A stretch of DNA of 62,668 nt, filler included, from Dugesia japonica (taxonomy: Eukaryota), in NCBI GenBank assembly GCA_001938525.1. It is 6 parts of 6 records of this genome, joined end to end, with 100 filler letters (N's around TTAATTAATTAA, not from the genome) between each part and the next. Parts side by side here need not be neighbours in the genome. Positions count along the whole stretch, not along the records: positions 44,595 to 53,171 come from MQRL01341104.1; 5 more parts are not named here. The stretch is one strand, 5' to 3'. The translations under genes were made by a program, and so were the position numbers. Of the stretch, positions 6,201-59,038 are shown in pieces (positions within the stretch are counted from its first letter, which is position 1; each line of letters begins with the position of its first letter). The notes below the pieces were generated by a model that did no database searches, was not told the origin of the DNA, and saw only the letters and a list, made by a program, of their open reading frames with translations.

Positions 6201-7445
6201 AATATCTGTAAGTTTTATGTTAGAAACCGTTTTTCAGTCATTTAAAAGAATAATGAGTGGAGTTTCAAAAATAGGAGCTTGGGTATGTTTCGATGAATTC
6301 AATAGGTTATCTCCATCCGACATGAACGATGCACTAAATTTGATGGATAAAATTCAATCGAAGCTTCAGTTAGTTAATCAATGCGTATTGCCTAATTTTG
6401 TAGAACATTTAGTTGACGAAGACGTTAGTCTTTATAAAATATTTTTTTGCTAATAATTGAACAGTAAATTACAAATTTTGATTGAACCATTAATATGTTT
6501 TCGTTTGGAATTTCAAACACTAGAAGCAGGGCCGAATTTTAAGAAGAGTAGACCGGGCAACCGCCCGGGACGCCAAAATCTATCTGTNAAATGAAAAAAT
6601 CAAAACTCTGTTGAAACAATTGTTTTTTTCAATTTCACAGATCTCTAATATGAGGTATTTGTGTCCTCAAAAAACCAAATTTCTTTTTTCCATTTTTCGG
6701 TGGATATTAGCATTTTACGATATGAGTTGATGAAACATTCTTATCTTACTTTTTAATTTTCCATCTATCCATAAATTTTCATCCAAATTTTTAGTCATCA
6801 GGTGGTTTCATGCCTTTTGTGTCGAATTAGAGAATTTATCGATACAAGTACTCTAGGTGACGTATAGGTAGTTTTCAAATTTAGGAAAATTGGTAAAATT
6901 TTCGAACCAATATCGTTCAAAATGGCGGTGTTTTTAGATTTAAATCTATAATGACGTTTTAAAGACGTGCCTTACAAAACTTATAAATGCAGATCATTGC
7001 GCGGCTTCTCAGTGCACATCTAATGATACCTAATTTGATTTGATCCAATAAGAATTATGCACAATACAATGAAAAAACTGTACAATTTTTAAAATTGATT
7101 ACGTAATTCATTTTTAGAATGCTTTTTTAATGGGAAAGGAATTATTTTACTTTTAAATTCTCTATCAAATTATGCACCTTGAATAAACAAAAAAAACAAA
7201 TTTTCGAGGACTTTGAAAAGAAATCGAAAGAAAAATTGGCTGGAAAAAAGTTTTACCGACGGGAGGTGGTTGATTTCATGCTGACATGTCTCACTAAGAT
7301 AAATTACGAGTAATCAAACCTATAACATTATAAATAGGAAATTATGAACAAGGTGAGTGAAGAGAACGAAGTAGATCTACAATGTCCAGTAGCAATAAAA
7401 ATTAAAACAAGTTTTTACACATTTATTTCAGAGAAGATGCTGCCT

Positions 7446-7483
<38 letters not shown>

Positions 7484-10400
7484 TAGAGTTTTTAACAATA
7501 AGAGAAAATGTTTTTTTGTAAAATCGTGCATTTCTCAAAATTGGTGATTTTCATTGTCGTACTCTCCTCTCTTACAGATTATACAAGAAATGTTATTTGT
7601 TTACTAAATTTGCTTTTCATAGGTATCACTCCTATAAAAAGTTACACTTACGACGCTTAAACGACACCCCAATCTCTATCTACAAATCCACTTTAATAGA
7701 CACTGATAAATATACACTTGATTCTAGTATAACGCGGTTTCAGTATAATGCAAATTGCAAATTGCACTAAAACTTCGTGTATTTTTTGTTTAACGCAATT
7801 TTTTCTAATTTTATAGGTTTGTAGTCGCTAATTTTGTAATTTGGATATTTCCTATGCGTGCATTAACTGTGCTTTTATTTCATATTGTATGAGTAAACAA
7901 ATTCATACATTATAATATTATAATTACACAGAATATTAATTTTATCATGTTGTTTAGCTCTCGGTTCATTGTGAAACTTGTATTGTTCTAACAATGAATA
8001 AAAATTATAAAGGTCGAACAGATCTACCGGAAAAAATAAATGATTTATTCAGATCTTTCTCAATAACTTCACCTGATACAGATTTAATAACAAAAGCTTT
8101 GATAAATTTCCAAGTAAAATAATTTTCTTAATTATTCGTGAAAATATTTTCTAAAAGGGTTTTCAAAATATTGAAATTTTAACAATGAAAATTCTGCACT
8201 TCTTTAAATTTTGTGAAAATCAAATCATTACGAAAAGTCATTATGATTTCGGATTGAGAACTATAAAGCGTATAATCGAAGATGCTGGCAACATATTTAG
8301 AAAAAATGAAAATGAAGTAAATAACATTAAATAACATTTTATGTCGTGTTTTATTAATAATTATGTCTGAAAAATTATTCTTATTTGTAAAAGAATAAAA
8401 ATATTTAAAATTTCTTATTAAATTTTAGTAAATTGTAAATATTTATTATATTATTGATTTATTATTATATATCCATGTAAAAAAATGAGAAACCTTCATA
8501 TATCAGTCGTTTTATTCAAAACATTACTGACACTCATTCTAAGTTGGGTACACCCGATCTCGTTCGATCTCGGAAGTTAAGCCTACCTAGGCCTCGTTAG
8601 TAGTTATAACGAGAGCTGTGTCAACTGAGCCTGGCTAGTGTTTGATTAGTGATAACCTTACCCATTTCCAGTGCAAGAAGGAGTCCACCACTTCGTATTC
8701 GATGTGTATCAAGTTCAGGTGTTTTTGGTTAAGTCCTTTCAAATTCTCCTATAATTTTCTGCCTTAGAAGAGTTTCATCATTCGATCGTCAAAGGGGCAC
8801 TCAAAATCAGCTGATAGATTCCAATTTCTGCTAGTTGATATCATTATGAGATCCCATGTACGGTGCCCATTTAACGGGGTCTTTAGTCTGAAAGTTGCTT
8901 TTGTCGCGGTGTATCAATACTTGTAGTTCATTTATAACGTGAACAGCGTCGACTGACCTGGCTGGTGTTTAGTTGGAGATAACCTTACGCATTTCCAGAG
9001 CAAACAGGAGTCCACCACTTCGTGTTTGATTGTGTGCGTGTTCCTGTGTTTTCGGTTAGTTCCTTTCAAATTATCTTATAATTATCTGTCTTTAAAGAGT
9101 TTTCATCATTAGATCGTCAAAAGGATACTCAAAATAAGCTAGCAGATTCTAAATTCTTGCTAGTTGATATTCTGGTAATAATCGATCTACGGTGCCCAGC
9201 AATGGGGTCTAAAAAGGGCTTCGTTTATCGCGGCATATTAATACGTGTAGTTCCCTTTAGCTTCACATATTTGCATTACATTCTATATTTCCTCAGCACC
9301 TGGACAAATGATTAAATTTGGAATAGAATCTGTTTTAATAGTTATTGAAAATTTCGATTTATTTCTATTGCTCCATAAAACTGTATTATGTTGCTCAAGA
9401 AACACTATTGTTGTGAATNTTGGTCTGAGTTAATCTCCATTTTCTTTTATAATTATAACTTTACCTATATCTAACTTATTTAAAATCAAGATGGTCAGAT
9501 TTTAATAAATTTTACAAAACCTCTGAATTAATAAATTGAATTATTGTAAAGTAAAATTTGCCCATCTTCCCCATTAATTTTGCCATTGAAGTTAATGTCG
9601 TTTTCACAAACTTGTAATTTTTTTTATTATTTCTACTCATTTAGGCAAACTAAATGCAATATTTATAATATAATCCTTTGTCGTCGTTCTACTGTTTTGT
9701 TTATTAGGTTTCGAAAATGGAAATTCGTAATTTAGAGGAGGCTTCTAGAAATTTTTAATAATAGGATATTTTGTTTCAATATCAATGTTGATGATTTAGT
9801 AAAAAAATACTGATATCGAATAAATCTTCATAGACAGATGATGCATACGAAAATCCTAATGATTCATTTTGTTCTACATTTGAAGCACTTGCAATAGACA
9901 CTTTTGATTCTGTTACAATATTTATGGCTGTATTACTTTCACTATTTTCATGGCTTTCTTCAACGTTTTTTTCGTTTGAAATACCTATCTAATGATTGTT
10001 ATTTAAATATATAATACTATTATCACCCCGTCGCGCTTCTTTAAATCTGAGCTCTGGTCTAGTGTATTATAAAGTTAAAGTTAAAGAGAGTATTATTTGG
10101 TATTCGGGAACATTGTTTGCTTTTCCAAAGTTTTGTGAATTCGTTACATTCTAATATTAAGTTTACTGTAAAGGGAAAAGGAATGGTATTCTGTCCTTGT
10201 TTTTGATATTTTCATTGAATGGAAATCATCACATCATAAGACTGAAATCTACAAAAAGAAAAGTGATATTGGCTTGTATGTTATCCCAAATAGTTTTTGT
10301 GATCCTGCTTAACAAAAGAAAATGGTAATGGGTTTAGTGTTTCGTTCATGGTCATTGTTATCAACTTATTCAAAATCCATTAAAAGTATTGAGCATTTAT

Positions 10401-11375
10401 TAAAGTTACTGCAAGCAAATGGATATAGTAAAATATTTTTAAATTCATTGACTTCACAGACAATTGATAAAATATTGGTTGGTAATAATATTGATTTCAA
10501 TAAAAAGGTTGAAACTATTTTGAATAATTCTGAACCTGATAACATTTTGTTAAACTTTATTGGACCATTTATTTTATCAATTGCTTATTATGAAGGTGGT
10601 AAAAAGTATAAGTGCTCGATTCTAAAAGCTGTTAAGGATCTATTTTTATTGAAAATTGTTTCTACATCGCACAAAATTGTTAATAGCTTTGTTAATAAAT
10701 CCCATACACTGATTGGTCTGTGTCCTAAAATTACAATACATATTTTAAATTTATTAAATATTATTATTAGAAAATTTGAAAATTTTTTTTTAAATTTTCA
10801 AATTTGTATCGAAGATTTAATTTCCCATAATTTTCTCAATTCAATCATTTTCAAAAAATATATTCTTAAATATTTACATTTTGATGCTGAAATAATAAAT
10901 TGATAATATTCCTATGATAGAATACCAATATCAATGAAGAAGCGTGTGTTGTGTCTTCTATGAAAATTAATATTTTACCCAGACTTGAAATTAAAGATTT
11001 GATATTGACAAAGGAAGTAATCGAAGAAATCTTTCATTCGACTAAAGAATCTCTTGATTTCATAAAAGAGGATATTTTTCAAAACAATCTTTTCAAATCT
11101 TTTTCAAATCTTGGTAAATATTTTGTGGAAAAGTTACACCAATTACATAATCTAATGGAATTTCATCAATCGATTATAATCTATGGAGAAACTGGTAGTG
11201 GAAAAAGTTTAATTTGGAAAAATTTGCTGGATGCTTATAAAATCATTTATCCGGAATTCTCATTTAACAAATTTCATTTAAATCCGACAGTAATTGATAA
11301 TAAATCTTTATTTGGATACATCAATGAATCAACAAACAAGTGGATTGATGGACTTATACCAAGTTTGTTCCGCAA
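249..11375 (+). CDS. Divergent dynein heavy chain (cytoplasmic dynein-1-like), partial, multi-exon. Exons approx. 249(or ATG 189)-326, 373-1194, 4114-4263, 4324-4670, 5286-6192, 6238-6423, 7958-8113, 8158-8316, 10921-11375
   Basis: GT-AG joins keep one open frame. Motifs: RFYFVNDDELLEILS, AAA1 Walker A GPAGTGKTE, FNCGDTF, GAWVCFDEFNRL, TMNKNYKGRTDLPEK, HYDFGLR, AAA2 GETGSGKS, WIDGLIPSLFRK. Cut off by the contig end. Confidence 0.92.
1345..2040 (-). mobile_element. Decayed mariner (DD34D) transposase relic in dynein intron
   Basis: Minus-strand translation across frameshifts: IISDEK..KVMFCIWW..GILYHELLKP..ILLHDDTRPH..WEILPHLAYSTDIATTDFHLFR, matching the mariner HDNARPH and YSPDLAPSDY motifs. 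Confidence 0.9.
2050..3631. mobile_element. Probable Maverick/Polinton terminal-inverted-repeat relic in dynein intron
   Basis: Ends GTGCGCTCACATCTACCTACT at 3631, resembling the termini at 34014 and 59909. Internal GCAACAC-type tandem repeats at 2620-2960. Left boundary uncertain. Confidence 0.5.
6526..6600 (+). mobile_element. hAT-type MITE 5' end
   Basis: CAGGGCCGAATTTTAAG...GGGCAACCGCCCGGGACGCC is a typical hAT non-autonomous terminus. Confidence 0.45.
7449..7480. repeat. (AT)n microsatellite
   Basis: Seen directly. Confidence 0.95.
8527..9255 (+). mobile_element. 5S rRNA-derived element (SINE3-like or 5S pseudogene) followed by a ~325-bp tandem dimer
   Basis: TACACCCGATCTCGTTCGATCTCGGAAGTTAAGC..GGCCTCGTTAGTA matches the eukaryotic 5S 5' half and A box. 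Units 8600-8922 and 8923-9246 align along their length. Confidence 0.75.
10080..10720 (+). mobile_element. Penelope-like retroelement reverse transcriptase C-terminal fragment in dynein intron
   Basis: NIKFTV..NGILS(F)DI..TEIYKKKSDIGLY..GLVFRSWSLLS..LLQANGYSKIFLN matches the PLE consensus IKFT.E.E..LPFLD..VYRKPT..L..RA..ICS..L..NGYP. Confidence 0.8.
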
Positions 11376-11493
11376 GTACAATTCAATCTATTTTATTTCA
11401 AATTTACTGTTATTTTGTAATTGATACCATTTAAATTGAATCGAATTATAATTAAATAAAAAAAACTTTCCATAAAGTTTCTATTTAAAAATA

Positions 11494-22072: not shown

Positions 22073-22408
22073 TGTTGGGGTTTTACCCTTTATAGGTTGA
22101 TGATTTATGTGAATAAATTTAGGGGGGTCGAACTTTATATAAAATTAAGTCTAGGGTCATTGATTTGGTAAAACCCCGCGATGAATTTTAATCTGGTGTC
22201 CCCCGAAAATCCAGATCTTCGGAATGAAGCCGTTGACTCGTAGCTCGAGTACAGACTCNCATTCCTTTAGTTCGGGTTCGTTTACATGATACTCGCTTAA
22301 TTTTCTAATCAAAATTAGCTTTTACAATTATCCCTTAATAATTTTCCGTTACTCTATAATTGATTATAATCTTAATAGCTATTTAACAATTCCGAAAAAC
22401 AAAAGAAT
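22073..22408 (-). repeat. Interspersed structured repeat, probable LTR 3' end (copy 1)
   Basis: Reverse complement aligns closely with 53723-54060. Ends GGGTAAAACCCCAACA. Confidence 0.8.
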
Positions 22409-44690: not shown

Positions 44691-47309
44691 TTTATTATAC
44701 TATATGGTTTATTTAGATTTTTGAGTTTATTTTTTTTTAAGTATATTTAACTTAAATCATGCTTGTAGTGATCATTGGCTTTATGACTGTATTGAAAAGA
44801 GTAATCAAGAAATCTCAATGAAATAAATAAATCGAATGTATTGAATACTTGTATTAAATTTGATGAATTTATAGATTATATTTATTATCTTAAATAGATT
44901 GAGTATATTATACGGCTTAATTGTATCAAGTAATTGAATTTATTAATTTTATTGAATGTATTAAGTTAATTTTAATAAATTGGTTTCGAAATTTTATGTT
45001 AGATTATAATTTTTGTGTGATTTATGTAACTTTTATATGTTTTTTTAATATTTACTATGAATTTCAAATTTTTATGTTAGATTAGTGTGACGGATTCTAA
45101 TGTTTATATGTTGGAACAATATTTTCTATGTCAGATGTTTAATTTTTCCTATGTCAGATTAAAACTTTGTGTTATAGATTCTAATTTTTGAATTTTTTAT
45201 GCTCAGCATTAATTTTTTATGTGTTTGATTAAAATTTTAGTGTATTAGTTTCAAATTTTTACAAAATATTTAGATTTTTGTATAATGGGTTTATTCAATG
45301 TGATGGGCTGTCTAAAAGGTTCAGATTTTCATATATTAATTTTGAATTTTAAAGTGTTGGCTTTGAAGTTTAATATATTAGTTTTCGATTTCGTTTCAAG
45401 AGTTTAATTTTTATGTAATGTTAAAATTTACTTTTAAGTGTTGATAGTTTACTTTTGAGTGATTTAATTAGTTTCACATGTTTTAATTTTAGTGTAATGG
45501 TTAAGATTTTAGTGTGATGGATTATAATTTACATATGATGAGATAAATTTTCATATGACTGGTTAAGAAATTTAGTGTTTCGGTTAAGAATTTTAATGAA
45601 TTGATTTCCAATTTAATGTCATGAGTTTATTATTTTCCTTTTGAGTATTAATCTTTATATGTTGGCTTTGGATTTTTTGTGATATATGTTACTTTTTTGT
45701 ACGTTGGTTTTCAATTTTTGAGTATTGGTTTTGAATTTTTATGTAATATATTATAATTTCTATGTATAGGATCATAATCGTTTGTATGTCAGCTTTGAAT
45801 TTTTATGTGTTGAGTTAAGTTTTATATAATGGTTTATAATTTTTAGTCTGATAAGTTAAATTTAGTGTGATAGATTTCAATTTTCATATGTAAATTAAGA
45901 ATTTTAATGTATTGGTTAAGAATTTTACACGATGGATTGTTATTTATGTCTTGGATTAAATATTTTAACTAGGTTACGATGATCGAACTCAAATCTATTA
46001 ATCAAAGTATGCCTCTTAGAGACTTTAGACTTAATTATTAGTGAAAGACTTTTATTAAATCTACTTATCCATATGATTCTTATGATTATATAAGTGTATG
46101 ATATAAGTATCATATTAGATTATGCGAATGATTGATAGATGATTAATACGATTTGTGAGAAAAAATAGAATTAGTAAGTTGAGGTTGAGTTTTCATGAAT
46201 GAAATTCTATTGTCCTGGTCAAAATTTTTCAACAAATTGTTTATTGAATATATATATTTTAATGGGTGGTATAAGGTTCTATATGATATAATTATTAAAT
46301 AAATTGAATGTATGATGGTTAATTGTATCAAAAATTTAATTATGTATTTGTATGAAATTACTATATATTTTAGTAAAAATTTAGATTTGTGTAGAATTGT
46401 ATAAAATGAGTATATATTCTATTGAAATTTAATGCTTATTTTAATGAAATTTATATTTTTGATGATTAAGCTATTAATTTTCACGTTAAAACCAATATCT
46501 TCTATGATGACTCGCATATATTCTGAGATGAATCGTGTATTTTCATGATGAAGTGTCTATTTTTCATGATAAAGTAACTAAATGTCCCTTATGGATATTA
46601 GAATTTATACAGTAAGTAGTGATTACCATACAGTTGACTCTTGTTGTGTTGCATGTATATTGTACTCATATTGAACTCATATTGTATTTATACTATGCAT
46701 GTATGAGAAAAAGTCATAACTGAATAGATTAAATGGGTTTAAATGACTAATTTTAAGTTCACTATACTTTGTATGTTTGATAGAATCAATAAATATCTGT
46801 AAGAACAGCACACAGTTTGTACAAAATGCTATATTTTAGCAAACTTATTAAAATTTATAAATGGTTCCATGACATTTGTATACTCCTCATCAAATTTACT
46901 GAAGATTTTATTGAAAATGAAGTATATTTGTGTTCAATGAAGTTTGAATTAAAGCGATATTATTGTAGTGAAAGTTTGGTTAGAATAGTATTAAAGTATT
47001 GTTACGTATGAAATATTTGTGTATGGTTGATTAAAATTGTTATATCATTCACGAGGTTGTGTAATCTTTATATATTTCTTAATGAAAATTCTTAATGAAG
47101 TTAGATGATACTTTTATTGAAATGAGTGAATAAAGTGAGTGAATGAGATGAATCAAATTTATTGAGTATTATGTTTGTTAATGAAGTGTATTGAGTAGAA
47201 TAAAAAAGTGGATCATGTATATTTAATGAATGTAGTGTATTGAGAGATCATAATTTTATGTACTGATTGCATGAATTAAGTAGATTAAGGGTATAAATAT
47301 ATTTATTAT

Positions 47310-47545
47310 TCATATACTTCTAGTAGTTTTTTGATAATTATTATACACTTCTAGTAACTTTAGGTAATGTTTTATACTTCTAGTAACTTTTTGAATTATT
47401 TTCATATTGTTTTACATAGGAATTTAAAGATTTTATCAACTTCTAGTAAATTTTCAAGAAATTTTGTATACTTCTAGTAAATCTTTAGGATTTTTAAAAT
47501 ACTTCTTGTAATTTTTAGACAAATTTCATATGACTTTAGTAAATA
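47310..47545. repeat. ~30-bp minisatellite
   Basis: Repeated ATACTTCTAGTAA core. Confidence 0.8.
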
Positions 47546-48578
47546 TTTGGCTTATTTTGCTAAGTTGATTAAGTGAATCAAGTATATGTTGAATGTATGA
47601 TCGATTGTATTACATTCATATTTATGTATATTAAGTGATGAGATTATTTATTGGTAACCTGTTGACATTTTTTATTGGTAAGCTGTTGGCATCAAATCCG
47701 TTGTTATGCATCTTTTCATAATATTATCATTGTTCTAAAAATTTTAATTAAATTCAAATTAATTTATAAATAAAATTTACTTCATTGATGTTTCCTTTCA
47801 ATAGAGTTTTATTCATTTTGTTTGTATTCATGTTCAGTATATCTAAAATAAAAAGTACAAAATATTTTTTCAAGAGAAATAAATAACTTACTTGTCAATA
47901 TTGATATGGAATTATGGAAAAATAATGTATATATATATACTGAATACGTAATCAACACACATAAACATATGGCATTTATTTTTTATTGTTACATAATTAT
48001 TGCATACATAAAACATGTGGCAATTTAGCTATTATCTCATCAATTTCGTAACAATTTTTCAAAAATAAAAGATAAAAACACGAGTCACTATATTAAGTAA
48101 TAAATATTTCATCTTGTAAACATTAAAATTCATAAATAACAAAACTATATTAATATACAATAAATAAAAAACATAACTAATTTTAAACTAAAATTTATTC
48201 ATTCCTTTTCATATTCTGCACATGACGTCTCCTTTCTAATTATAGTTTTAAATACATCGAAACATTATCATTAAGATTATTAATTAGAAATTCTTTACTA
48301 AAAACATTCCAATGATGATCTTCCAAATATTCCCGTAATGATTGATATTTTTTTAATGTTATTTATAATACTTATTACAATGAAAAACAAAATTAATGTA
48401 ATTAAATCAAATCACTATCCTTCAAAGAAATATTTCATTTTACTTAGATTAAATACAAATTCTAATAAGAATACTCTAGAATCATTTGTTTTACTGTATT
48501 AATTTAACTATAATTACATACATTTCTTCCAAACATGTATATAAATCGACACTTTTAGTCATTATTCATTATTTAAAA

Positions 48579-49001
48579 ATGCAAGTTACAAATGCTTCAA
48601 CTGTTGATGTCAAATATGGAAAACAACAAAACAATTACAAATGTGATATGGTTTTCAATAGGAAATCATTATTATATACATTTCAAGTACTATTTTATTC
48701 ATCAACAACTACTATCAACGTTTTGATTTAGAATCCAGTCAAGCTAAAAAGATGCATCTATAATATGCTCGTTTCTGAAATAAGCACAAATGATCAACAA
48801 ACGTTAAACGATCTATTTGTTAGAATCAATAAATTGATGAAAATAGAAGATGCCTGCTTTATAAGTTCAAAAGAAGACGATGGTGATGCATTTAATGTCA
48901 AATGCAATATCTCTGTGGAGATATCTGGATACAATAAACTAGAGAAGAATGTTAAACCTATTTGGAAAATAAAATCAATCCAAAGTTTATTTCTTGAATA
49001 A
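48579..49001 (+). pseudogene. Maverick accessory ORF of unknown function (one internal stop)
   Basis: ORFs 48486-48731 and 48765-49001 share a frame. GTATATAAAT at ~48538 lies upstream of ATG 48579. Confidence 0.4.
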
Positions 49002-49135
49002 ATATTATTATCTAACACGTTTTATTGGTTATATTATTTGTTATATTACTTTTACTTAGTTATTACTTTTTATAAAAATTGTTTTAAAACAAACATAAAA
49101 TAAAGTCAATTTATCAAAACTTTATTTATAAAAGA

Positions 49136-49898
49136 TTCAATCCCAGTGTATCCAGCGATTGATTTGTATGACATTTGTCAACTAAAATTAAAATATTAAA
49201 ATATATCAATAAAAATTGCAAAATTACTTAAAGTATTTGGATCTCTTTCGATTTTACATTGATGTTGTTTTCTTAGAGCAATTGCTAGAGCTTGTAGTTT
49301 GATATTCATTTGATTTTGATTTATTACTTCAGGACTTGAATAACTTAGATCGTCTTTGATATTATTTGTTAATGTTTGTTTTTCGTTTTCATAAAGCTCG
49401 TTTGCAACTGTTGGTAGATTCAGCTTGTAAAACTTTACTAGATTATCCATTATGGATGTTATATTTTTCAAAGTCTCTGTGTTGAATTAAAGTTTTTCCA
49501 TAAATTCTAATCTTCTAAGAATCACTAGACTATCCAGAAATTGAATTTGAATAAGAGCTTGTAGGCGAGCTTCCAATGACTTTTCCAACTGATGTTAATA
49601 TAGTATTATTTCATTATTTGAGATTTCCTCCATTGCATCAACAAATGGTTCGAGATTAAACACATTTCCCAAATTATCAGCCACATAAACTTTGCAATTG
49701 TAGAGATAATATTGATAGTTTAAGATAAACAATTTTTGGTTTCTTCTATAATCTTTGGAATCTTGGAACTTCCATGCCATTTCACGAAAGATTTCATGAA
49801 TTCATCATCATCGGCAATATCATCTTAATTATATAGCTCCAACTATTTCATCATTTCCTTCTGTTTCTCTGTCAACATTTTTATTTTATGACATCATG
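49136..49898 (-). pseudogene. Maverick accessory ORF of unknown function (decayed)
   Basis: ORFs 49595-49780 and 49196-49471 share a frame, separated by stops. Upstream CCAAT/ATTGG boxes and TATATAAA at 49910-49962. Confidence 0.55.
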
Positions 49899-49961
49899 AT
49901 AATTTAATTTAGTTTATATAGTTTAAAACACCCAATCAAAAATCATCTTGAATCTGATTGG

Positions 49962-50411
49962 TTAATAATCATGAATCAAACTTTTTAAATCTTTTATTAT
50001 TTCCTCAACTAATTACTAATAATAAAATGTTTTGATACCAAATAATACAATCTTTCCACTTGAAAAGACTTTAACATATATTGGATCATATTTTGTAAGT
50101 CTTAAGCCTGGAAATAATTCGGGTTCATACATACACTTGATTTTTCTTGCTAAATCACTTATATTAACAGATTGTTTTAAATTGATTACAATTGTTAGCG
50201 ACTGTAATTGAATATCTTTGATATCGTATTGTAATTCCTTTGGTTTTATTGGTTTTTTATATCCCATTACTCTACAGTTTCCGGTTTGGAAGAATACGAT
50301 CGTATACTTGCCAGTTTTCTCCACAACTTGAGCTCGTTTTCGTATTGAAAATTTCATTTTGTTGACGACTTCTTGATCCACTTTCCCTTTGTAATTTATA
50401 TTTGCAATCAT
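49962..50411 (-). pseudogene. Miniature intronless TATA-binding protein (TBP) homologue within Maverick, with two nonsense codons before the last helix
   Basis: Repeat 1 IANINYKG..TIVFFQTGNCRVMG. Repeat 2 DIQLQSLT..MYEPELFPGLRL..VKVFSSGKIVLFG. The frame continues past TAG TAA as LVEEIIKDLKSLIHDY*. Confidence 0.88.
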
Positions 50412-50443
50412 TATTAATGACTAATAGATTTTCAAAAAGGATA

Positions 50444-50459
50444 TTTATACATGTATAAA
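50444..50459. promoter_or_regulatory. Palindromic bidirectional TATA element
   Basis: TTTATACATGTATAAA is a perfect 16-bp palindrome between the divergent ATGs at 50411 and 50503. Confidence 0.65.
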
Positions 50460-50502
50460 CAATAATAATTAAAGGGATACGTTTAAACAAGTATAAATTA
50501 TA

Positions 50503-51115
50503 ATGGAATTAAGAAATTATGAAGTCTATCAAATTGTTGGTCCAAGTGGTAGTGGAAAAACTCTGCTTGTATGCATATTATTGAATTCAAATTTATTCAA
50601 GTCAAAATTTAACAAAATAAATTGACATAGAGGAGCAGATGAGGAGCATGGATTGACTTAATCTGAATTTAGTGGTATAAAAATGACCATTATAAATTAA
50701 TTCGATGAAAATTGGAGCAAGAGATTAACTAATGGTGATGTTATTGTTGTTGATGATCTGTATCAGGAAGCAAACAAGGAAAAAAGTCATCGAGAAAAAA
50801 GATATTGAGACATTGTGGTGTTATCTGATATTCATTACACAAAATCTATTTCATCAAGGTAGTGATCATAGAACTCGTTATTTAAATGTGCAATACTTGG
50901 CTATATTCAAAANTCCAAGAGATCAAACTGTTGTTGATTTTCTAGCAAAACTAGCGTATCAAAATAATAGACAATTTCTATTGGATTCATTTAAATATGC
51001 AACAGCAAGACCACATGGATATATTTTTCTGAATTTTATACAGCAATGTCCAAATGATTTAATAGTTTAAACTGATATTTTTAATTCAAAAAGTGTTGCA
51101 GAGTATAAAAAATAA
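50503..51115 (+). pseudogene. Maverick/Polinton A32/FtsK-like packaging ATPase (decayed)
   Basis: IVGPSGSGKT, Walker B VIVVDDL, IFITQNLFHQG..RTRYLNVQYLAIFK.PRD, ATARPHGYIF. Confidence 0.92.
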
Positions 51116-51137
51116 AGGTAAGTTGAAATAATTACAA

Positions 51138-51412
51138 ATGTCTAAATTTACTAAAGTTTTAGTTGAGCCAAAAAGGATTAATTAAACCAAGAAAGTTTGA
51201 AGAAATCAACAATCAAGTCAACAATGATGTAAGTATTTCAAATTATATCAATTCTATAAAGAATGTAATAAAAAGTCTATAAAGAGTCAATCAAGGAAAC
51301 AATCATAGAAATTATCAAAAATTGTGAATAAAACAATCAAAGATTGCGAAAAAGAATGAAAAGATAAAGATTCAATCGACTGGGAAATGGATAAAGCTAT
51401 AAACAATGTATA
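51138..51412 (+). pseudogene. Small decayed Maverick ORF
   Basis: MSKFTKVLVEPK.. between the ATPase and the next ORF, preceded by GTATAAA. Confidence 0.35.
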
Positions 51413-51434
51413 AATGTGTTAATTAATAAATATT

Positions 51435-51755
51435 ATGTCATTTCAACAAAGTCTTCCTTATTTAAAATTATTGTTAAAGACTCCATGAGAGTCGACAGTG
51501 AAAATGTTACAGGCCTTTCCAATGTTTTTTATTGATGATTTATTAGAAATTGTTGTAAATATTGTTCGTGGTAATTTATTTCTAAACAAAGTGAAAACGT
51601 TGGCATTACAACGTCATAAAAGATCGTTGCTTTCACTTGTTAATACAAAGAAAAAGAGATTATTGAGAAAAATAATGTATAAGCGAACAGGTGGATTTCT
51701 TGCGGCATTACTACCAATTGCATTAACAGCATTAAGACTTACAAATCTAATATAA
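51435..51755 (+). pseudogene. Maverick/adintovirus small virion protein with GGFL motif
   Basis: LPYLKLL..LLEIVVNIVRGN..KRTGGFLAALLPIAL matches the conserved Polinton small basic protein (E...N.L.GN ... Q.GGFL..LL). One stop. Confidence 0.75.
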
Positions 51756-51814
51756 ACAATGGGTAATTCAGAATCATTGACACATATTTATCTGAAATTT
51801 ATATCTAACGGTTG

Positions 51815-52560
51815 TAATTGAAATAATATCGACAGACCCAAAAAATCTAGCAGGATTCAAGGGAGAAGAAAAACTAAGGAAAACAACAAAAAGCTNGAAA
51901 AGCGAGACGAAAAGGTGGTTATCGAGCTAGTTATCGTACAGTCTGAACAAACCAATGCTGAATAGATTTCCAACAAGATTGTATAAAACATTTGGTATTG
52001 ATGATTTATGGCAAATGGATTTAATGGAGATGATTCCATTTTCAAAAATTAATAAAGGAAACAAGTATATTCTAATATGTGTTGATGTATTTAGTAGATT
52101 TGCAAGAGCTCTTCCAGTAAAATCAAAATCTGCTAATGATATAGAAGATCTATTAAAAACATTGTTTAAAAACGAACATCCAGACAATTTACAAACTGAT
52201 TTGGGAAAAGAATTCTATAATTCAAAAGTCAAGAATATTATTTCACATCTCAAAATCAATCATTACTTTGTATTCTCACAATACAAAGCAACATATGTTG
52301 AAATATTAAGTCGAACATTGAGAGATGCATTGAAAAGGTATTTTGTATATACCGATAATAAGACCTGAATACACGTCTTATCAAAAATAATTGATAGTTA
52401 TAATCATACAAGTTATAAAGGATTAAATGGAGCAAGACCTGTTAATGCATCATCAGATAATTCATTGAAATTATGGCTATCTAAACAAGATACCAAAGTA
52501 ATCAAGAAACCTAATATATATTGTAATATATTATATATTTTGTCAAACAAAAGTATTTCC
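51815..52560 (+). pseudogene. Maverick retroviral-like (rve) integrase (decayed)
   Basis: SYSLNKP..FPTRLYKTFGIDDLWQMDLMEM..NKYILICVDVFSRFA..LQTDLGKEFYN..KATYVE..RTLR..YNH. Confidence 0.95.
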
Positions 52561-52564
52561 AGAG

Positions 52565-52902
52565 CATAATAACTACAACTCAAGGAACTATTGAATTCAT
52601 TGTACCTAAAAAACCGCAATTTTTTTAACTATCATCATCAAATATTCATATATAGTAATATTGTTGAACCTGTTATTGTTGGCGATGTTAGTGTTCTTTT
52701 TTTGAAATCTGTATAGTTGGAGAATTATGAAGCTGATCAAATAATTTAGATAATAGTCAAGAATCCAATGTATTTAACTATTGCAACATCATGTATAAAC
52801 AATATAAAAATCAATATACGAGACGATAATGGTTATTTAATTAACTTGACTGAAGACTCAAAAACTCATTTAACGCTACATTTTAGAAAAGTAAATGTAT
52901 AA
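52565..52902 (+). pseudogene. Maverick minor capsid (penton) C-terminal part
   Basis: IFIYSNIVEPVIVGDVSV.FLKSV..NPMYL..INNIKINIRDDNG.LIN..LTLHFRK. Confidence 0.8.
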
Positions 52903-53171
52903 TTCTGATATTGTAGCATTATATAGTACCAGTCAAGCTGGTGGAGAATTACCTTACTTTGTAGGAAAACAATATGGATCTGGATGATTGTAAACAATTG
53001 ATCGATTTGCTTTCCCTATTCTTGGTATTATTGACGCTATTGGTATGAAAACAGCTCAAGATGTAATTTTAAATAATGCAAAAGTTATACCATCATTAAA
53101 AGCAAATGTAATGTCTGAATTCAATAATTTTATGTCTTCAGAAGAACTCTCGAAAATGATTTTAAAAAATC
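52896..53171 (+). pseudogene. Maverick/adintovirus Gly-motif core protein (decayed, cut by linker)
   Basis: YSTSQAGGELPYFVGKQYGSG*L*TIDRFAFPIL resembles the Y..Q.G.G..Q.G.G..FR...P.L family. Confidence 0.7.
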
Positions 53172-53271
53172 NNNNNNNNNNNNNNNNNNNNNNNNNNNNN
53201 NNNNNNNNNNNNNNNTTAATTAATTAANNNNNNNNNNNNNNNNNNNNNNNNNNNNNNNNNNNNNNNNNNNN
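53172..53271. other. Artificial contig linker
   Basis: N44-TTAATTAATTAA-N44. Confidence 0.97.
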
Positions 53272-54060
53272 ATAAGGGTTTGAAGGTTGACCAATAGTTT
53301 CGAAGTCCAAAAATAACCGCCAATGAAAAGAAAGCATGTGACCGTTTGGCCAATAAAAGTGTCGAAAATTTATATTCACCAATGGAATAAACGGGGGTGT
53401 AGAAAAAACCGGTATAAATACCGATGAAAATTTCACAAAACTTAACACTTTTAACCAGAAAAATATTGAGTTAATCGGAAAAATTTTACTTTCACAAAGG
53501 TAATTATTTTTCATCAATTCATGATATGGCGATTTCCGACTCGAGAAGAAACGGCAATGGTGGGCTCCTCAAATCGTTAATTTCAACAAAAAATCTGCAA
53601 TCAAAATGTTGAGCTTGCTCCAAATCGGGATCCAGGCTACGTTACTTTTGTTAATTATGTTAACCATTAAATTATTGTGTCTCAAGTGAAATTTTAAATC
53701 ATAATATATTTTTCACTTACAAATTCTTTTTGTTTTTCAGAATTGTTAAATATCTATTACGATTATAATCAATTATAGAGTAACGGAAACTTATTAGCGG
53801 ATAATAGTAAAGGCAAATTGTGATTAGGAATTAAGCGAGTATCATGTGAAACGAACCCGAATCGAAGGAGTGCGAGTCTGTACTCGGATTACGAGTCAAC
53901 GGCTTCATTCCGAAGATCTGGATTTTTTGGGGACACCAGATTCAAATTCATCGCGGGGTTTTACCAGGTTAATTACCCTAGACTACATTTCATATAAAAT
54001 TCGACCCCCCTAGATTTAAGGCATACAAGAATTCAACCCATCAAGGGTAAAACCGCAACA
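53272..54060 (+). mobile_element. Probable long LTR (promoter, intron, structured 3' end; copy 2)
   Basis: CCAAT at 53291, 53320, 53350 and 53379. TATAAATA at 53413. AAG|GTAATT donor at ~53500 and TTTTCAG acceptor at 53740. The 3' 340 bp is shared with 22073-22408 and ends ..CAACA. Confidence 0.6.
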
Positions 54061-54628: not shown

Positions 54629-57600
54629 ATGTCCAGTAATTGTTCATACAATTATTTTTATAGAATGCATGCCCAACATTTATCTGAATTCAATAAGAAA
54701 TCATTATTTTTAAAAATAATTACTAGTTATATTCCGCTGTGTTAGAAATTAAAATTAGAGCCTAAAGTTATAGATATTAATGATGATGAAACAGTAGTTA
54801 AGGTTGAGGTTTTTGATACTCCAGTTGTTGATTCGGTTGTTGGTCTGACTATTCATTCAGTTAATGATCCAACTGTTGATCTAGATGGTTATTTTATTGA
54901 TCTAGATAAGGAAATAAGTGATGGAGACTAGGTTTTGTATAAGTTTATAGAAGAGGAAGCCAACGTTGATGGTTGTCTTAATCTCGGTGAACCTGTTGTG
55001 GAAACACATTTGCATAAATATTATCGAATATTAAAATTAGATGTTTCTANNTATAATATNAGAGAAATTANGTCTGAAAAATTAGTTAAGCAGGTATTGG
55101 CTTCAATTAAANAAATNAAAAATGTCAAAATTCAATTTGGTATTGAAAGGATGAGGAAATTAAGACTTGTAGGATATCTAATAGGACTGTTTAATTGACT
55201 GATTATTGTTTTGATGATGGTATTACGCAATTAAACGAGAAAATAGTTATAAGATCTAAATTAGAAATTAGTTGGACCTTAAACTGAATTTTAGAAATTT
55301 CTTCAAAATTATCTAAAGTTTCTAATATAAGTAGACTCTCTGAAAGTATTTGGATTTATAGTCTAAAAGATTTAAAAGATAAAAATGCTAAAGTCAATGT
55401 GAAAAATAATGATGATTTATGCTTCATATACAGTATTCTTGCTGTACTTGAGCGAAATGATTTTAACATAAACATAGGAATTTCGAAGAACAAAATAAGA
55501 AATATCTAGGAGATTTTGTATTTGGCTGTTCTGACATGCTAATGAGGCTGGCTAATATTCAAAAGTTTGAAAGGCTCTCCAGAAATGTTTTATCTTGGAA
55601 TTTTGTTTCTGTTGACGATTATGAAGATTATCAATTAATTATGAAACATCCTAATTTAGACATTATTCATAAGAGTAAAGTTAAAGGGAGAAATATACTT
55701 GTTATTGTTTGAGCATAAGGACAAATATCATTACACTGCAGTAATGCATTTAAATAGGTTAATGAATTGCAATGTTAAAAATACTGGGATGCGAATTCAA
55801 TCTACTTGTTGTCCAAATTGCTTGAATGGGTTTAAGAATAAGATTTCGTTTGAGAAACATGAATTTCTTTTTGAAAGGTTTCAAGCGGGAACCACTTTGT
55901 AAAGAATGAATGATGAGAAAGAGTTAATATTTAAGGATTACTCAAAGACAATAACTTCTTCTTTTGTACTTTACGCTGATTTTGAATCAGTTTTACCCAA
56001 AGATTCTAAATGTTATGCTATTTTTTATTTATTTTTATTATTTTTTATTAAAAATCTTGTTTTTAGAGTATATAAGTACAACCTGAGTGTATGTTTATAC
56101 TTATGTGTAATACTATAAAAAATTAAATTAAATAATTTGAAAAATATAAGAATTGATAGAATTATAGATTGACAAATTACAAATTTAAAAAACTATTAAA
56201 AATTGCAAAAACTTGGCAACCACCGAATAGAAAAGAAATTTTAAAACAATTATTGGAACTAGATCGAAATTTTAAATAAAATACTCAAGATAAAAAGGAA
56301 ACTCCAAACACCGTCCTAGTATTCTAATTTGGTCCAATTTTTGTTATTTGGAATCACTGTATAATTTAGTTAGAAACCCACAAATTAACACCAATTAATC
56401 AAGTCCACAGAAAGCCAAAGCACTCCCAATTACAACCACCAAGAAATTATAAAATAAATAGTAAATTTACATTACATTTTTGTTCAAATAAAACTTGGTT
56501 AAAATTAGTTTGATTGAAAAGTTTTGAATTAACTTTGTATACAAATATTTTCTATATTTTTTTTCTGTAATATTATAATTTAATTATCAAACACAACATA
56601 CATCACGGTTTTTCCCAACGTTGAGACAGGAGACGCTTCCGGGCTCAAGAAATTTCCTTTACAAATTAAATTAATAATAATAATAATAATAAATTATATA
56701 AAGAAAAATACATATAGAATCCTCCTATCAAGCGGTAATAACCTTTCAACTTAANAAATTATTTTTCATAACACTAAATATTTTCAACGTCATGAACAGA
56801 TTTCTGCTGGACTTTTACTAGTAAATAATTTTACTTATGAAGTTAAGTATTATCAACTCATTAGCTATGATTGCATTTTTGATTTCTTGCAAATGATTTA
56901 GAATATAACTAAAAACATTGTCCAACCTTATTATGAGAAAAAATAGCTGAAAGTCGATTATAATTACACATGATGAAGACATAAGTTCTAAAAGATCTAC
57001 AATCTTTTATTATTGTAGAAACGTAATTAAAAACCTTGAAATATACCATGATCACTTCACTGGTAAATATATAGGAGCTGCTTCTTCCAAATGCGATATA
57101 AGTAGAAAAATAAGGTTTAAACTTGCTATAGTATTTCATAATTTGAAGGGATACGATCTCCATCATTTTTTAAAGTATGGACTTAGTAACGTTTTAAATT
57201 AGGAGATTTCTTGTATTCCTACGATCAGTGAAAACCTTTTAAGTTTGACTGCGCATATATCAAAAGTATCTGTAAAGTTCTTAGATAGTTAACAATTTAT
57301 AAACTCTTCACTTGATGCTGCTGTTAAGACAATAAATTCAACTCCATTAACATCAAAGGAGTTTAAGGATAGTCGACTGATTAAGACTAAGGGGATTTTC
57401 CTTATAATTTTGCGACTAGTTTATAGGTTTTAGAGGAGAGATTATCATTATCACCAATTAGGGATGGAGGTACCGAAGACAGTTATTTGAAAGCTATTGA
57501 GATGTTGAAACTTTGTAACTATAAGAATCTTTTGGACTATATGATGATCTATTTGAAACTTGATGTTTTTCTTCTAGCTAATTTCTTTCAACAATTTAGG

Positions 57601-59038
57601 GCTAAATCTTTAGAGCATAATAGGTTAAAAACACTTAATTTCTTTGGTATTCCTGGAATGAGTTGGGCTTCTGCCTTAATGACTTTAAATGAGCTTTTGA
57701 TTCATTGAGCCTTTGACCAATAATGATATGTACACTTTTTTGAAGGTGGTATCAGAGGAGGTCTTACTTTTTTAAATAAGAATTATGTAGATACAAATGA
57801 TAATAATAAAATTTTTTATAAAGACATAAATAATTTATTTGGTTGGGTTTTAAGCAAAATGCAACCTTTTAAGAATTTTGAATGGGTGTATAGTGACTTG
57901 GAAAATATTCTTGTTGACTTAGATTTAGACTCTTTGTCTTATGGTCATAGTGTTGAAATTGATATGATGATTCCAAACGAGCTCCATGAACACTTAAGTG
58001 ATTTACCTCTTGCTGCTGAACAACAAATTGTACCAGGTACTAAAATTAAAAATTTATTATTAAAACATCACCCAAAGAAAACTATGTAATGCATTGGAGG
58101 TTACGTCAACTGTATTTACAAATAGTAGTTCAAGTGACTAAAATTCATAGAGCTGTAAAATTTGATCAAGATGATATCTTTAAGGCTTATGCAGATAGGA
58201 ACACTGCATTAAGGTCGGAAAGTAAAAATGAGTTAGACAAAAATTATTTTAAGTTACTCAATAACTTTACAGTTAAAAATCTTAATGAATCTCCGTCTTT
58301 GTAACTTTGCTAAAACGTTGGTGACTTATACTTCCAAATCGAGCTATTTAAAAACCTTTAAAATCGACAAGGATCTGATTGCTGTTCAACTTAATAAGGA
58401 TATTATTTGTTGGGATCGTCTAAGTTACATTGGACAATCTGTACTTGATTTATTTAAGCTTAGGATGTATCAGCTTCAGTTTATAGAATTATAAAAAGAC
58501 AATAAGGAAGGGAATTATTGTATAACAATTGTTGCGGGTACACAGACAGCTTCTTTCTAGAAGTTAAAAATATTAAATTAGAGAAATTGCTAGGCTAAAT
58601 GGTTCAAGATAGATTGTGAGACACGTCTAATTATAGTAAAGACCATCTAATTTTCAATGATGACTTGAATTTCATTGTTGGGAAATTTGAAGACGAGTCC
58701 AAAGGCAATTGGTATAAAGGCATAAAGACATAAGGTATATAGATTTTTCTGAGATCAAAATGTTACAGTTTCCATAGCAAAAAACGTCTATGAAGGCTAA
58801 GGAAGTAACATTAAAATGTACTGATATAAATCATCAGTCATACCTTGATTGTTTTAATGATAATCAAAAGGTCTCATTTAATTAATTTAGAATGCTTAAT
58901 AAAGACCATCAAATATTTAGTTCAAATAATCCTAAAATTTCATTAACAAACACAGACGACAAACGAGTATGGATAGATAAAAAGATAAGTCTACCATACC
59001 GACATTGTGAAATACCACCCTGTAGTAAAGACGACTAA
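54629..59038 (+). pseudogene. Maverick/Polinton protein-primed family B DNA polymerase (decayed, interrupted by a solo LTR)
   Basis: NVKNNDDLCFIYSILA, YADFES, HDHFTGKYIGAA (EndoVII-like insert), FHNLKGYD, KFLDS, KGIFPY, YLKLDVFLL, GIRGG, DINNLFG, YFKLLNN, YTDSF, GKFEDE, DDKR..LPY.H. Confidence 0.95.
56011..56773. mobile_element. Solo LTR (763 bp) inserted in pPolB
   Basis: TGTTATG...CATAACA termini and 5-bp TSD CTAAA. Excision restores YADFESVLPKDSKYFQRHEQISAG. Confidence 0.92.

What the first reader, a model, noticed from the sequence alone, without database searches (positions are those of the whole stretch)
49962..50411. A Maverick/Polinton (adintovirus-like) element encoding its own miniature TBP
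Seen: an intronless ORF of about 150 codons with both TBP repeats (YEPELFPGL and VFSSGKIVLFG in repeat 2). It has no N-terminal extension, a shortened repeat 1 and apparently no first long helix. It sits on the same gap-free contig as, and head-to-head with, the ATPase-integrase-penton module. Known: TBP homologues occur in large nucleocytoplasmic DNA viruses and are not part of the standard Maverick gene set; I do not recall a description of one there. Inference: this small dsDNA virus/transposon lineage captured and remodelled TBP, perhaps as a late transcription factor or a decoy for host TFIID. This copy is probably dead (TAG TAA before the last helix), but intact relatives may exist.
Basis: partly seen in the sequence, partly recalled or inferred. 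Interest (0 to 1): 0.88.

Follow-up and report, generated by a model that had tools for sequence, protein, structure and literature searches.

The report
Maverick mini-TBP with own promoter box
A decayed virus-like Maverick element in an animal genome carries a broken copy of a stripped-down TATA-binding protein that is intact and conserved in many related elements, where it likely switches on the capsid and packaging genes through a promoter box those genes share.

Summary
Confirmed. Window 50411-49962 (-) is a two-repeat TBP-fold gene (AF2/VIA: 131 residues on yeast TBP 66-222, rmsd 2.7 Å, Z 11), broken by two stops and lying 91 bp head-to-head with a Maverick packaging ATPase. It is not a host retrocopy: it belongs to a family under purifying selection, and 13 of 27 fetched family loci show Maverick hallmark genes, none host genes. 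The family keeps the TFIIB stirrup and three of four kinking phenylalanines, lost most of the repeat-1 helices, and has a conserved polar DNA face. YATAAAC is enriched on the sense strand (79 vs 18 expected; antisense 1 vs 16). It lies before 41 of 44 virion, packaging and integrase genes but only 1 of 24 TBP genes. It is not enriched in three Polintons carrying other TBP types. The window's spacer holds a host-type TATA+Inr for TBP back to back with YATAAAC for the ATPase. Best reading (0.65): an early-made viral TBP that likely drives late genes, as herpesvirus vTBP does; binding is untested. In print I found only a 'TBP' label in a figure legend (Starrett 2021). This scan noted the family before on other genomes, and the box lead came from one such note.

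The parts
49962..50411 (-). Mini-TBP gene, pseudogenised (open 50411-50019; two in-frame stops at 50018-50013, before the last helix)
50442..50449 (-). Host-type TATA box (TATAAATA), 31 nt before an initiator-like element; predicted promoter of the TBP gene
   Evidence: sequence; Inr consensus recalled
50416..50420 (-). Initiator-like TCATT just upstream of the TBP start codon
   Evidence: sequence
50454..50460 (+). YATAAAC box 49 nt before the ATPase start, back to back with the TBP TATA box
50503..51112 (+). A32/FtsK-like packaging ATPase, broken (stops, frameshift)
   Evidence: 56-66% identity to intact ATPases of L004/L006/L009/L019, which hit Pox_A32
51398..51404 (+). YATAAAC box 37 nt before the core-like gene
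51435..51752 (+). Small conserved basic gene following the ATPase (core-protein-like; label inferred), broken
   Evidence: 41-45% identity to L004/L006/L009/L019
51751..51757 (+). YATAAAC box before the small ORF/integrase
51814..52515 (+). rve integrase, broken and 3'-truncated
   Evidence: Pfam rve E 1.5e-13
52633..52893 (+). 3' remnant of the putative penton gene (label from position and recall; fold not tested); contains YATAAAC at 52794-52800
52901..53113 (+). Small conserved gene lying between penton and MCP in relatives (cupiennin-like; name recalled from Starrett 2021), broken
   Evidence: 52-58% identity to L014/L019
49196..49897 (-). Unknown helical gene downstream of TBP, broken; YATAAAC at 49918-49912 upstream; 5' end approximate
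   Evidence: 69% identity to P0179; no family found
48620..48998 (+). Conserved small gene that also neighbours the TBP gene in L003/L004/L005/L008/L009/L013 (SSB-like; resemblance recalled, untested); 5' end approximate
   Evidence: 24-32% identity with a shared C-terminal motif
55729..59005 (+). Protein-primed PolB remnants, on the next contig beyond the N gap 53172-53271
   Evidence: tblastn to L023/L024 PolB, E 1e-38; Pfam DNA_pol_B_2 only weak, E 0.019

Best explanation
The ORF is a dead copy of a Maverick-encoded, remodelled TBP that in intact elements likely acts as the late-gene switch. Shown: the TBP fold, the Maverick context, purifying selection and the YATAAAC box in front of virion, packaging and integrase genes. 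Inferred: the TBP gene is made early, in this copy from a host-type TATA+Inr promoter. The protein then binds YATAAAC about 35 nt upstream of the late genes through its conserved polar DNA face. It recruits host TFIIB and RNA polymerase II through the intact C-terminal stirrup. Loss of the repeat-1 helices would free it from the partners that bind there on host TBP (TFIIA, TAFs, Mot1, Brf1; binding sites recalled).
For: Family: 28 hits among 42 candidates at 30-70% identity, 24 of them covering at least 96% of the query; 65 cluster representatives at E<=1e-30. Context: 13 of 27 family loci carry ATPase, integrase, PolB, protease, capsid or PLA2 genes; 10 more share a gene with those loci; none shows host genes. 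The L024 capsid gene is a double jelly roll (E 1e-14). Selection: pN<pS in 210 of 210 pairs; dN/dS 0.08-0.27 in the closest pairs with finite dS. Residues in 52 short members, yeast numbering: kept N69 51, F116 52, E186 50, E188 52, F190 52, P191 50, F207 52; fixed replacements V71N 52, F99P 49, V122R 51, T124M 52, N159S 52, I194R 51, L205N 51. Motif: sense 79 vs 17.8+-4.2, antisense 1 vs 15.6+-4.0 in 13 loci. Upstream of 41 of 44 late-type genes, 1 of 24 TBP, 1 of 10 SSB-like and 0 of 2 PolB genes; 3 hits in 17,142 nt of ORF interiors. With unselected first ATGs: 41 of 70 ORFs in 8 family loci, 3 of 42 in L084-L088, 0 of 21 in L089. Precedent: herpesvirus vTBP reads TATTWAA with a polar, Asn-rich face (PMC12529657).
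Against: No binding, start-site or timing data. RNA reads come almost wholly from other copies, and their strand pattern over TBP and ATPase cannot be read as sense mRNA. Host TBP can use such boxes weakly: TATAAACG gave 27% of TATAAATA (PMC10005294). 9 of 44 late-type upstream regions also hold a canonical TATA, some as TATATAAAC. Only 7 of 24 TBP genes have a canonical TATA within 120 nt. L087, a 6.2-kb fragment with no TBP seen, has 3 sense motifs vs 0.6 expected. No complete element that certainly lacks TBP was available as a control. The loci are related (L014 and L016 are near-duplicates), and I chose some starts after seeing motif positions. In this AT-rich window alone the motif is not in excess (39 vs 42.5). 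One of four kinking phenylalanines is lost, so DNA binding may be weak.
Confidence: 0.65

Rival explanations
1. Host TBP/TFIID reads YATAAAC as a weak TATA box. The mini-TBP is a decoy that sequesters TFIIB or TBP regulators, for host shut-off or protection from repression.
For: The TFIIB stirrup is among the best-kept parts. TATAAACG retains 27% activity with plant TBP (PMC10005294), and PDB 1qn3 is titled as a C(-25) TATA variant bound to wild-type TBP. 9 of 44 late-type regions hold a canonical TATA.
Against: A decoy needs no invariant DNA face, yet seven replaced DNA-face columns are fixed in 49-52 of 52 members. The box is not enriched in Polintons with other TBP types (L064, L085, L089).
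Confidence: 0.14
2. The mini-TBP binds YATAAAC but as a repressor or timer that keeps virion genes silent in the integrated state, or it works only as a cofactor while another element protein (C2H2 zinc finger, KilA-N) supplies the specificity.
For: Some family elements encode C2H2 and KilA-N proteins. Loss of one phenylalanine and of helix H2 could cripple activation.
Against: The TFIIB-recruiting acidic stirrup is invariant (E188 52 of 52), which fits activation. The C2H2 and KilA-N genes were seen only in part of the loci, and several themselves lie behind the box.
Confidence: 0.14
3. YATAAAC is a terminator or poly(A)-type signal or a codon by-product, and the TBP-fold protein has a role outside transcription, such as replication or packaging.
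For: The box often overlaps the stop codon or last codons of the upstream gene and resembles AATAAA.
Against: In the window it precedes an ATPase that has no same-strand upstream gene. Its spacing to the next ATG clusters at 32-38 nt, it often lies inside the upstream ORF, and it is nearly absent from ORF interiors (3 in 17 kb) and from the antisense strand.
Confidence: 0.06
4. A one-off host TBP retrocopy landed in a Maverick.
For: The gene is intronless and broken.
Against: It is 70% identical to family members but 20-28% to cellular TBP. It nests in a 31-row clade (SH-aLRT 99) set apart from canonical TBPs by a 0.96 branch (98). Neighbours on both sides recur beside TBP in other elements.
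Confidence: 0.01

Closest known systems
Cellular and archaeal TBP (Pfam PF00352)
   Same: Two-repeat saddle fold; C-terminal TFIIB stirrup; three of four kinking phenylalanines, N69 and P191 kept.
   Different: About 150 aa with no N-terminal tail; repeat-1 helices H1 and H2 largely deleted; F99 lost; DNA face polar; 20-28% identity.
Beta/gamma-herpesvirus vTBP (KSHV ORF24, EBV BcRF1)
   Same: Virus-coded TBP mimic in a virus relying on host Pol II, a variant TATA box on late genes, and a polar Asn-rich DNA face (PMC12529657, abstract and passages).
   Different: ORF24 is a large multidomain protein, lacks the TFIIB-binding acidic residues and needs five other viral activators. The Maverick protein is a bare saddle that keeps the stirrup. 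Structural match to BcRF1 is weak (E 0.013).
Nucleocytoviricota TBP homologues
   Same: Viral TBP fold; best named BFVD matches are of this kind.
   Different: Only 10-17% identity. Those viruses mostly have their own RNA polymerase (recalled); no polymerase was seen in near-complete L024.
Mavericks/Polintons (adintoviruses; Starrett et al. 2021, PMC8502044)
   Same: ATPase, integrase, pPolB, protease, penton, double jelly-roll MCP and PLA2 gene set.
   Different: TBP is not in the described conserved set. It appears once, as a label in the Fig. 5 legend on MELD viruses with adintovirus-like PolB, in the section on non-animal datasets; no family or promoter is described in the passages read.
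Polintons with unshortened TBP (L064 with PC4, L085, L089 with TFIIB; found here)
   Same: TBP gene inside a Polinton cassette.
   Different: They lack the family's DNA-face signature where aligned (L064, L085), fall outside the family on the tree (L089 not included) and show no YATAAAC enrichment.

Membership tests
TBP superfamily | Two-repeat saddle fold | tested here: met
   AF2 model; Foldseek E 1.3e-7; VIA Z 11.1-11.2, rmsd 2.7 Å over 131 residues
TBP superfamily | Pfam PF00352 above cut-off | tested here: met
   49.1 bits vs cut-off 22.9, repeat 2 only
Canonical cellular TBP | Four intercalating phenylalanines | tested here: not met
   F116, F190, F207 kept in 52 of 52; F99 position is Pro in 49 of 52
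Canonical cellular TBP | Repeat-1 helices H1 and H2 intact | tested here: not met
   Yeast 80-87 absent in 52 of 52; 135-142 absent in 49-52 of 52; AF2 shows no long H2
Canonical cellular TBP | Acidic TFIIB-binding stirrup (E186, E188) | tested here: met
   50 and 52 of 52; role from PMC10005294 passages
Canonical cellular TBP | Binds TATA DNA and TFIIB | not testable with these tools
   Needs biochemistry; no complex prediction was run
Viral late TBP mimic (herpesvirus vTBP type) | Variant TATA box restricted to late/structural genes | tested here: met
   41 of 44 vs 2 of 36 upstream regions; enrichment. 'Late' is assigned by gene type, not by timing
Viral late TBP mimic (herpesvirus vTBP type) | Homology to ORF24/BcRF1 beyond the TBP fold; no TFIIB stirrup; extra Pol II-binding domain | tested here: not met
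   About 150-aa bare saddle with stirrup kept; BcRF1 match only E 0.013
Viral late TBP mimic (herpesvirus vTBP type) | Required for late transcription | not testable with these tools
   RNA lay inconclusive
Maverick/Polinton (this copy) | Packaging ATPase and rve integrase | tested here: met
Maverick/Polinton (this copy) | Protein-primed PolB | tested here: met
   Remnants at 55729-59005, E 1e-38, but across an N gap, so membership of the same copy is not proven
Maverick/Polinton (this copy) | Major capsid protein and protease | tested here: inconclusive
   No tblastn match in the window; may be deleted or in the gap. Present in relatives L011, L014, L019, L024
Maverick/Polinton (this copy) | Terminal inverted repeats and target-site duplication | tested here: inconclusive
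   No inverted repeat bracketing the element among the 25 of 30 pairs shown; gaps flank the region

The most novel reading that the evidence does not exclude
Animal Mavericks run their own early-to-late transcription programme using the smallest two-lobed TBP I am aware of. Its DNA face has been re-specified to read YATAAAC. Polintons as a class have repeatedly carried basal factors (TBP, TFIIB, PC4), giving a natural orthogonal TBP-promoter pair and direct evidence that these 'transposons' have a viral lytic cascade.
Probability: 0.55. Interest if true: 0.85.

Novelty: new variant of a known kind. Interest (0 to 1): 0.72.

Why it matters
How Mavericks turn on their capsid genes, and whether they behave as real viruses, is an open question. 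A dedicated TBP with a matching promoter box gives a concrete, cheaply testable mechanism (binding assays, reporters, start-site mapping). It would be an independent parallel to herpesvirus late transcription in a 15-20 kb genome. It would also be a natural altered-specificity TBP that shows which surfaces are dispensable for Pol II initiation. This particular copy is dead; the value lies in the family.

Tried and rejected
No whole genome is held for this window, so copies in this assembly could not be searched. IMG/VR scans: the family alignment gave only 2 loci, both canonical-type TBPs; the ATPase alignment gave none; the capsid alignment had no usable pattern; the integrase alignment gave 4 loci. 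The run search listed no RNA holder (no evidence either way). The RNA lay showed no start-site pile-up at the boxes and ambiguous strands. The ESM Atlas confirmed TBP for the ORF but gave no family for the downstream helical gene; there is no sign that it is TFIIB (Pfam blank). No TFIIB was found among the 119 of 252 ORFs of L003-L032 scanned with Pfam. The capsid alignment had no PDB sequence hit; only the fold search identified it. The careful tree did not finish; the quick tree was used, with no root or donor test, so the origin (host, archaeal or giant virus) is unresolved. Patikoglou 1999 was not held, so which TBP lobe contacts which half of the box is recalled. No complex prediction was run: only stand-in TFIIBs were available. 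The Pfam hit to a neurotoxin domain (E 0.041, below cut-off) was rejected as chance. Literature: ten searches found no description of a Maverick TBP family or of this promoter box. The Starrett supplement was cut, and its slide files and Table S1 were not seen; they may name this gene.

Full report
OBSERVATION. The reading frame starts at 50411 on the minus strand, runs 131 codons, meets two in-frame stops and continues 16 codons to 49962. Pfam assigns TBP to residues 66-128 (E 5e-13), and all 35 PDB sequence matches are TBP chains. An AF2 model built with 28 relatives has pLDDT 88.6. The listed Foldseek rows among the 44 matches at E<=0.001 are all TBP. VIA aligns all 131 residues to yeast TBP 66-222 (Z 11.1, rmsd 2.7 Å; next non-TBP row Z 6.6). 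Both repeats are therefore real, although repeat 1 is invisible to Pfam.

SETTING. The left of the window is animal-type DNA: dynein heavy chain, Frizzled, kinase exons, mariner and gypsy remains (85 ORFs scanned). On contig 44595-53171 the gene is flanked on the right by ATPase (50503), a core-like gene, integrase, a penton remnant and a small gene. On the left are an unknown helical gene and a small conserved gene. The helical gene's only homologue, P0179, has the same longest-contig length (6631) as the closest TBP relative P0003, which suggests the same contig. The small gene also neighbours TBP in six fetched loci. PolB remnants lie beyond an N gap. No capsid gene or terminal repeats were found. 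The genes checked around it are broken, and the TBP copy is the lone or rare exception at several near-invariant family columns, so this copy is a decaying insertion. The host holds many diverged copies: 10,756 contig records were laid from one DNA run, mostly under 95% alike.

FAMILY. A protein search gave 28 hits among 42 candidates at 30-70% identity. A profile search gave 65 representatives at E<=1e-30. Of the 80 metagenome loci kept (of 515), 26 are family-type; L083 adds one. Of these 27, 13 carry hallmark Maverick genes, 10 share a gene with those 13, 3 share a gene only among themselves and 1 has no neighbour; none shows host genes (Pfam was run on 119 of 252 ORFs). L024 is near-complete: PolB, KilA-N, PLA2, TBP, ATPase, zinc finger, integrase, and a double jelly-roll capsid (E 1e-14). 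In most relatives TBP is co-oriented with the ATPase, so gene order is fluid. pN is below pS in 210 of 210 pairs; dN/dS is 0.08-0.27 in the closest pairs with finite dS, and dS is saturated in 97 pairs. On a quick ML tree of 89 rows, 50 family rows form one side of a 0.96-long branch (SH-aLRT 98); the window lies in a 31-row short-form clade (99). The donor is not resolved.

ANATOMY. Numbering follows yeast TBP through a collinear fungal TBP; counts are of 52 short members. Kept: N69 (51), F116 (52), the stirrup E186/E188 (50/52), F190 (52), P191 (50), F207 (52). Lost: most of helix H1 (80-87) and helix H2 (135-142), and F99 (Pro in 49). Fixed new residues on the DNA face: V71N (52), V122R (51), T124M (52), N159S (52), V161T/S (51), I194R (51), L205N (51). 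Twelve longer members keep the helices but share V122R, T124M, F99P and L205N in 12 of 12, so the DNA face likely changed before the helices were lost (inference). TBP kinks DNA at steps 1-2 and 7-8 with two phenylalanine pairs, and the C-terminal stirrup binds TFIIB (PMC10005294, passages). That the N-terminal pair works at the 3' end of the box is recalled. If so, the remodelled lobe faces the position where the element's box departs from the host consensus (C at 7).

PROMOTER BOX. In 13 family loci (70,588 nt) YATAAAC occurs 79 times on the sense strand (17.8+-4.2 expected, maximum 27 in 60 shuffles) and once on the antisense strand (15.6+-4.0). It lies within 120 nt upstream of 41 of 44 virion, packaging or integrase genes, mostly 32-38 nt before the ATG. 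It precedes 1 of 24 TBP genes, 1 of 10 SSB-like genes and 0 of 2 PolB genes, and occurs 3 times in 17,142 nt of ORF interiors. Some starts there were chosen after seeing the motif, and three were a few bases off. The unselected count is 41 of 70 ORFs in 8 family loci, against 3 of 42 in L084-L088, 0 of 21 in L089 and 2 of 36 in L090-L092. Three Polintons carry an unshortened TBP (L064, L085, L089) and show no enrichment. L084 and L086, with no TBP in the fragments held, are enriched for TATAAAW instead (25 vs 10.8; 15 vs 6.1). L087 is a partial exception (3 vs 0.6). In the window's 91-bp spacer, TATAAATA (50449-50442, minus) sits 31 nt before an initiator-like TCATT at the TBP start, back to back with TATAAAC (50454, plus) for the ATPase. 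The head-to-head layout thus looks like a bidirectional promoter rather than an accident. Canonical TATA occurs before only 7 of 24 TBP genes, with an initiator at the right distance in 5. In this AT-rich window as a whole the box is not in excess (39 vs 42.5); the evidence comes from the family.

EXPRESSION. Three RNA runs gave 112, 1754 and 201 reads, of which 1, 36 and 0 were at least 95% alike, so the RNA comes from other copies. One run covers the TBP region, but the same mate-strand excess is seen over the oppositely oriented ATPase. It cannot be called TBP mRNA. This test is inconclusive.

MECHANISM. Shown: fold, context, selection, residue pattern, box distribution. Inferred: early synthesis by host machinery, binding to YATAAAC, recruitment of host TFIIB and Pol II, and late activation (0.65). 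Rivals: host TBP reads the box and the protein is a decoy (0.14; TATAAACG keeps 27% activity, PMC10005294; 9 of 44 late-type regions hold a canonical TATA); repressor or cofactor (0.14); box not a promoter (0.06); retrocopy (0.01).

KNOWN. Herpesvirus ORF24 is the functional parallel: variant box, polar Asn-rich face, but no TFIIB stirrup (PMC12529657, abstract and passages). Giant-virus TBPs match at 10-17% identity. Starrett 2021 (PMC8502044; sections 3.2 and 3.4, passages, first part of the supplement; figures not visible) has 'TBP' once, in the Fig. 5 legend for MELD viruses with adintovirus-like PolB; the preprint's legends do likewise. PMC11161782 has no TBP or TATA term, and PMC4028283 has no TBP term. 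PMC10675990 mentions sporadic TBP genes in algal mirusvirus-like elements (passage). Ten searches found no description of this family or box. This scan's earlier notes report it on other genomes; they are not independent support.

VERDICT. A real feature. This copy is dead; the family is functional-looking and undescribed in the papers I could search. New variant of a known kind (viral TBP mimic); interest 0.72.

Noticed in passing
L089:8395-9590: A 20.6-kb IMG/VR contig named as part of a giant-virus MAG is a near-complete Polinton with adjacent TBP (E 7e-14) and TFIIB (E 5e-11) genes; some 'giant virus' TBP/TFIIB records may be Polinton genes.
   Followed up: partly
L064:1302-2728: A Polinton (PolB, ATPase, integrase, capsid, protease) with a two-repeat TBP next to a PC4 coactivator gene (E 4e-21).
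   Followed up: partly
L085:10818-12713: A Polinton inside a bacterial MAG (likely a binning contaminant) has an unshortened TBP flanked by two related ORFs that recall PC4 (no Pfam hit).
   Followed up: partly
L004, L006, L009, L019, L021, L024, L025: The box is often embedded in the last codons or the stop codon of the upstream gene; all seven aligned ATPases carry Tyr-Lys-Gln at or near the end, which can spell it. Its distance to the ATG implies 5' leaders of only a few bases.
   Followed up: partly
window 48560-49000: The SSB-like gene is the part most evenly covered in all three RNA runs, from a diverged copy and with one strand dominant in the clearest run; relatives appear to have an intron (splice-like signals).
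   Followed up: no
window 49196-49897: Unknown 229-aa helical gene with a single homologue in the database and an upstream YATAAAC; no family.
   Followed up: partly
window 53728-54018 and 22114-22404: An 88-89% identical repeat pair in inverted orientation; one copy lies between the virion module and the PolB remnants.
   Followed up: no
window 4324-11421, 31213-31464, 34601-39644: Host exons for a dynein heavy chain, a Frizzled-family protein and a protein kinase; mariner (1742-1951) and gypsy-like (26809-27737) remains.
   Followed up: no
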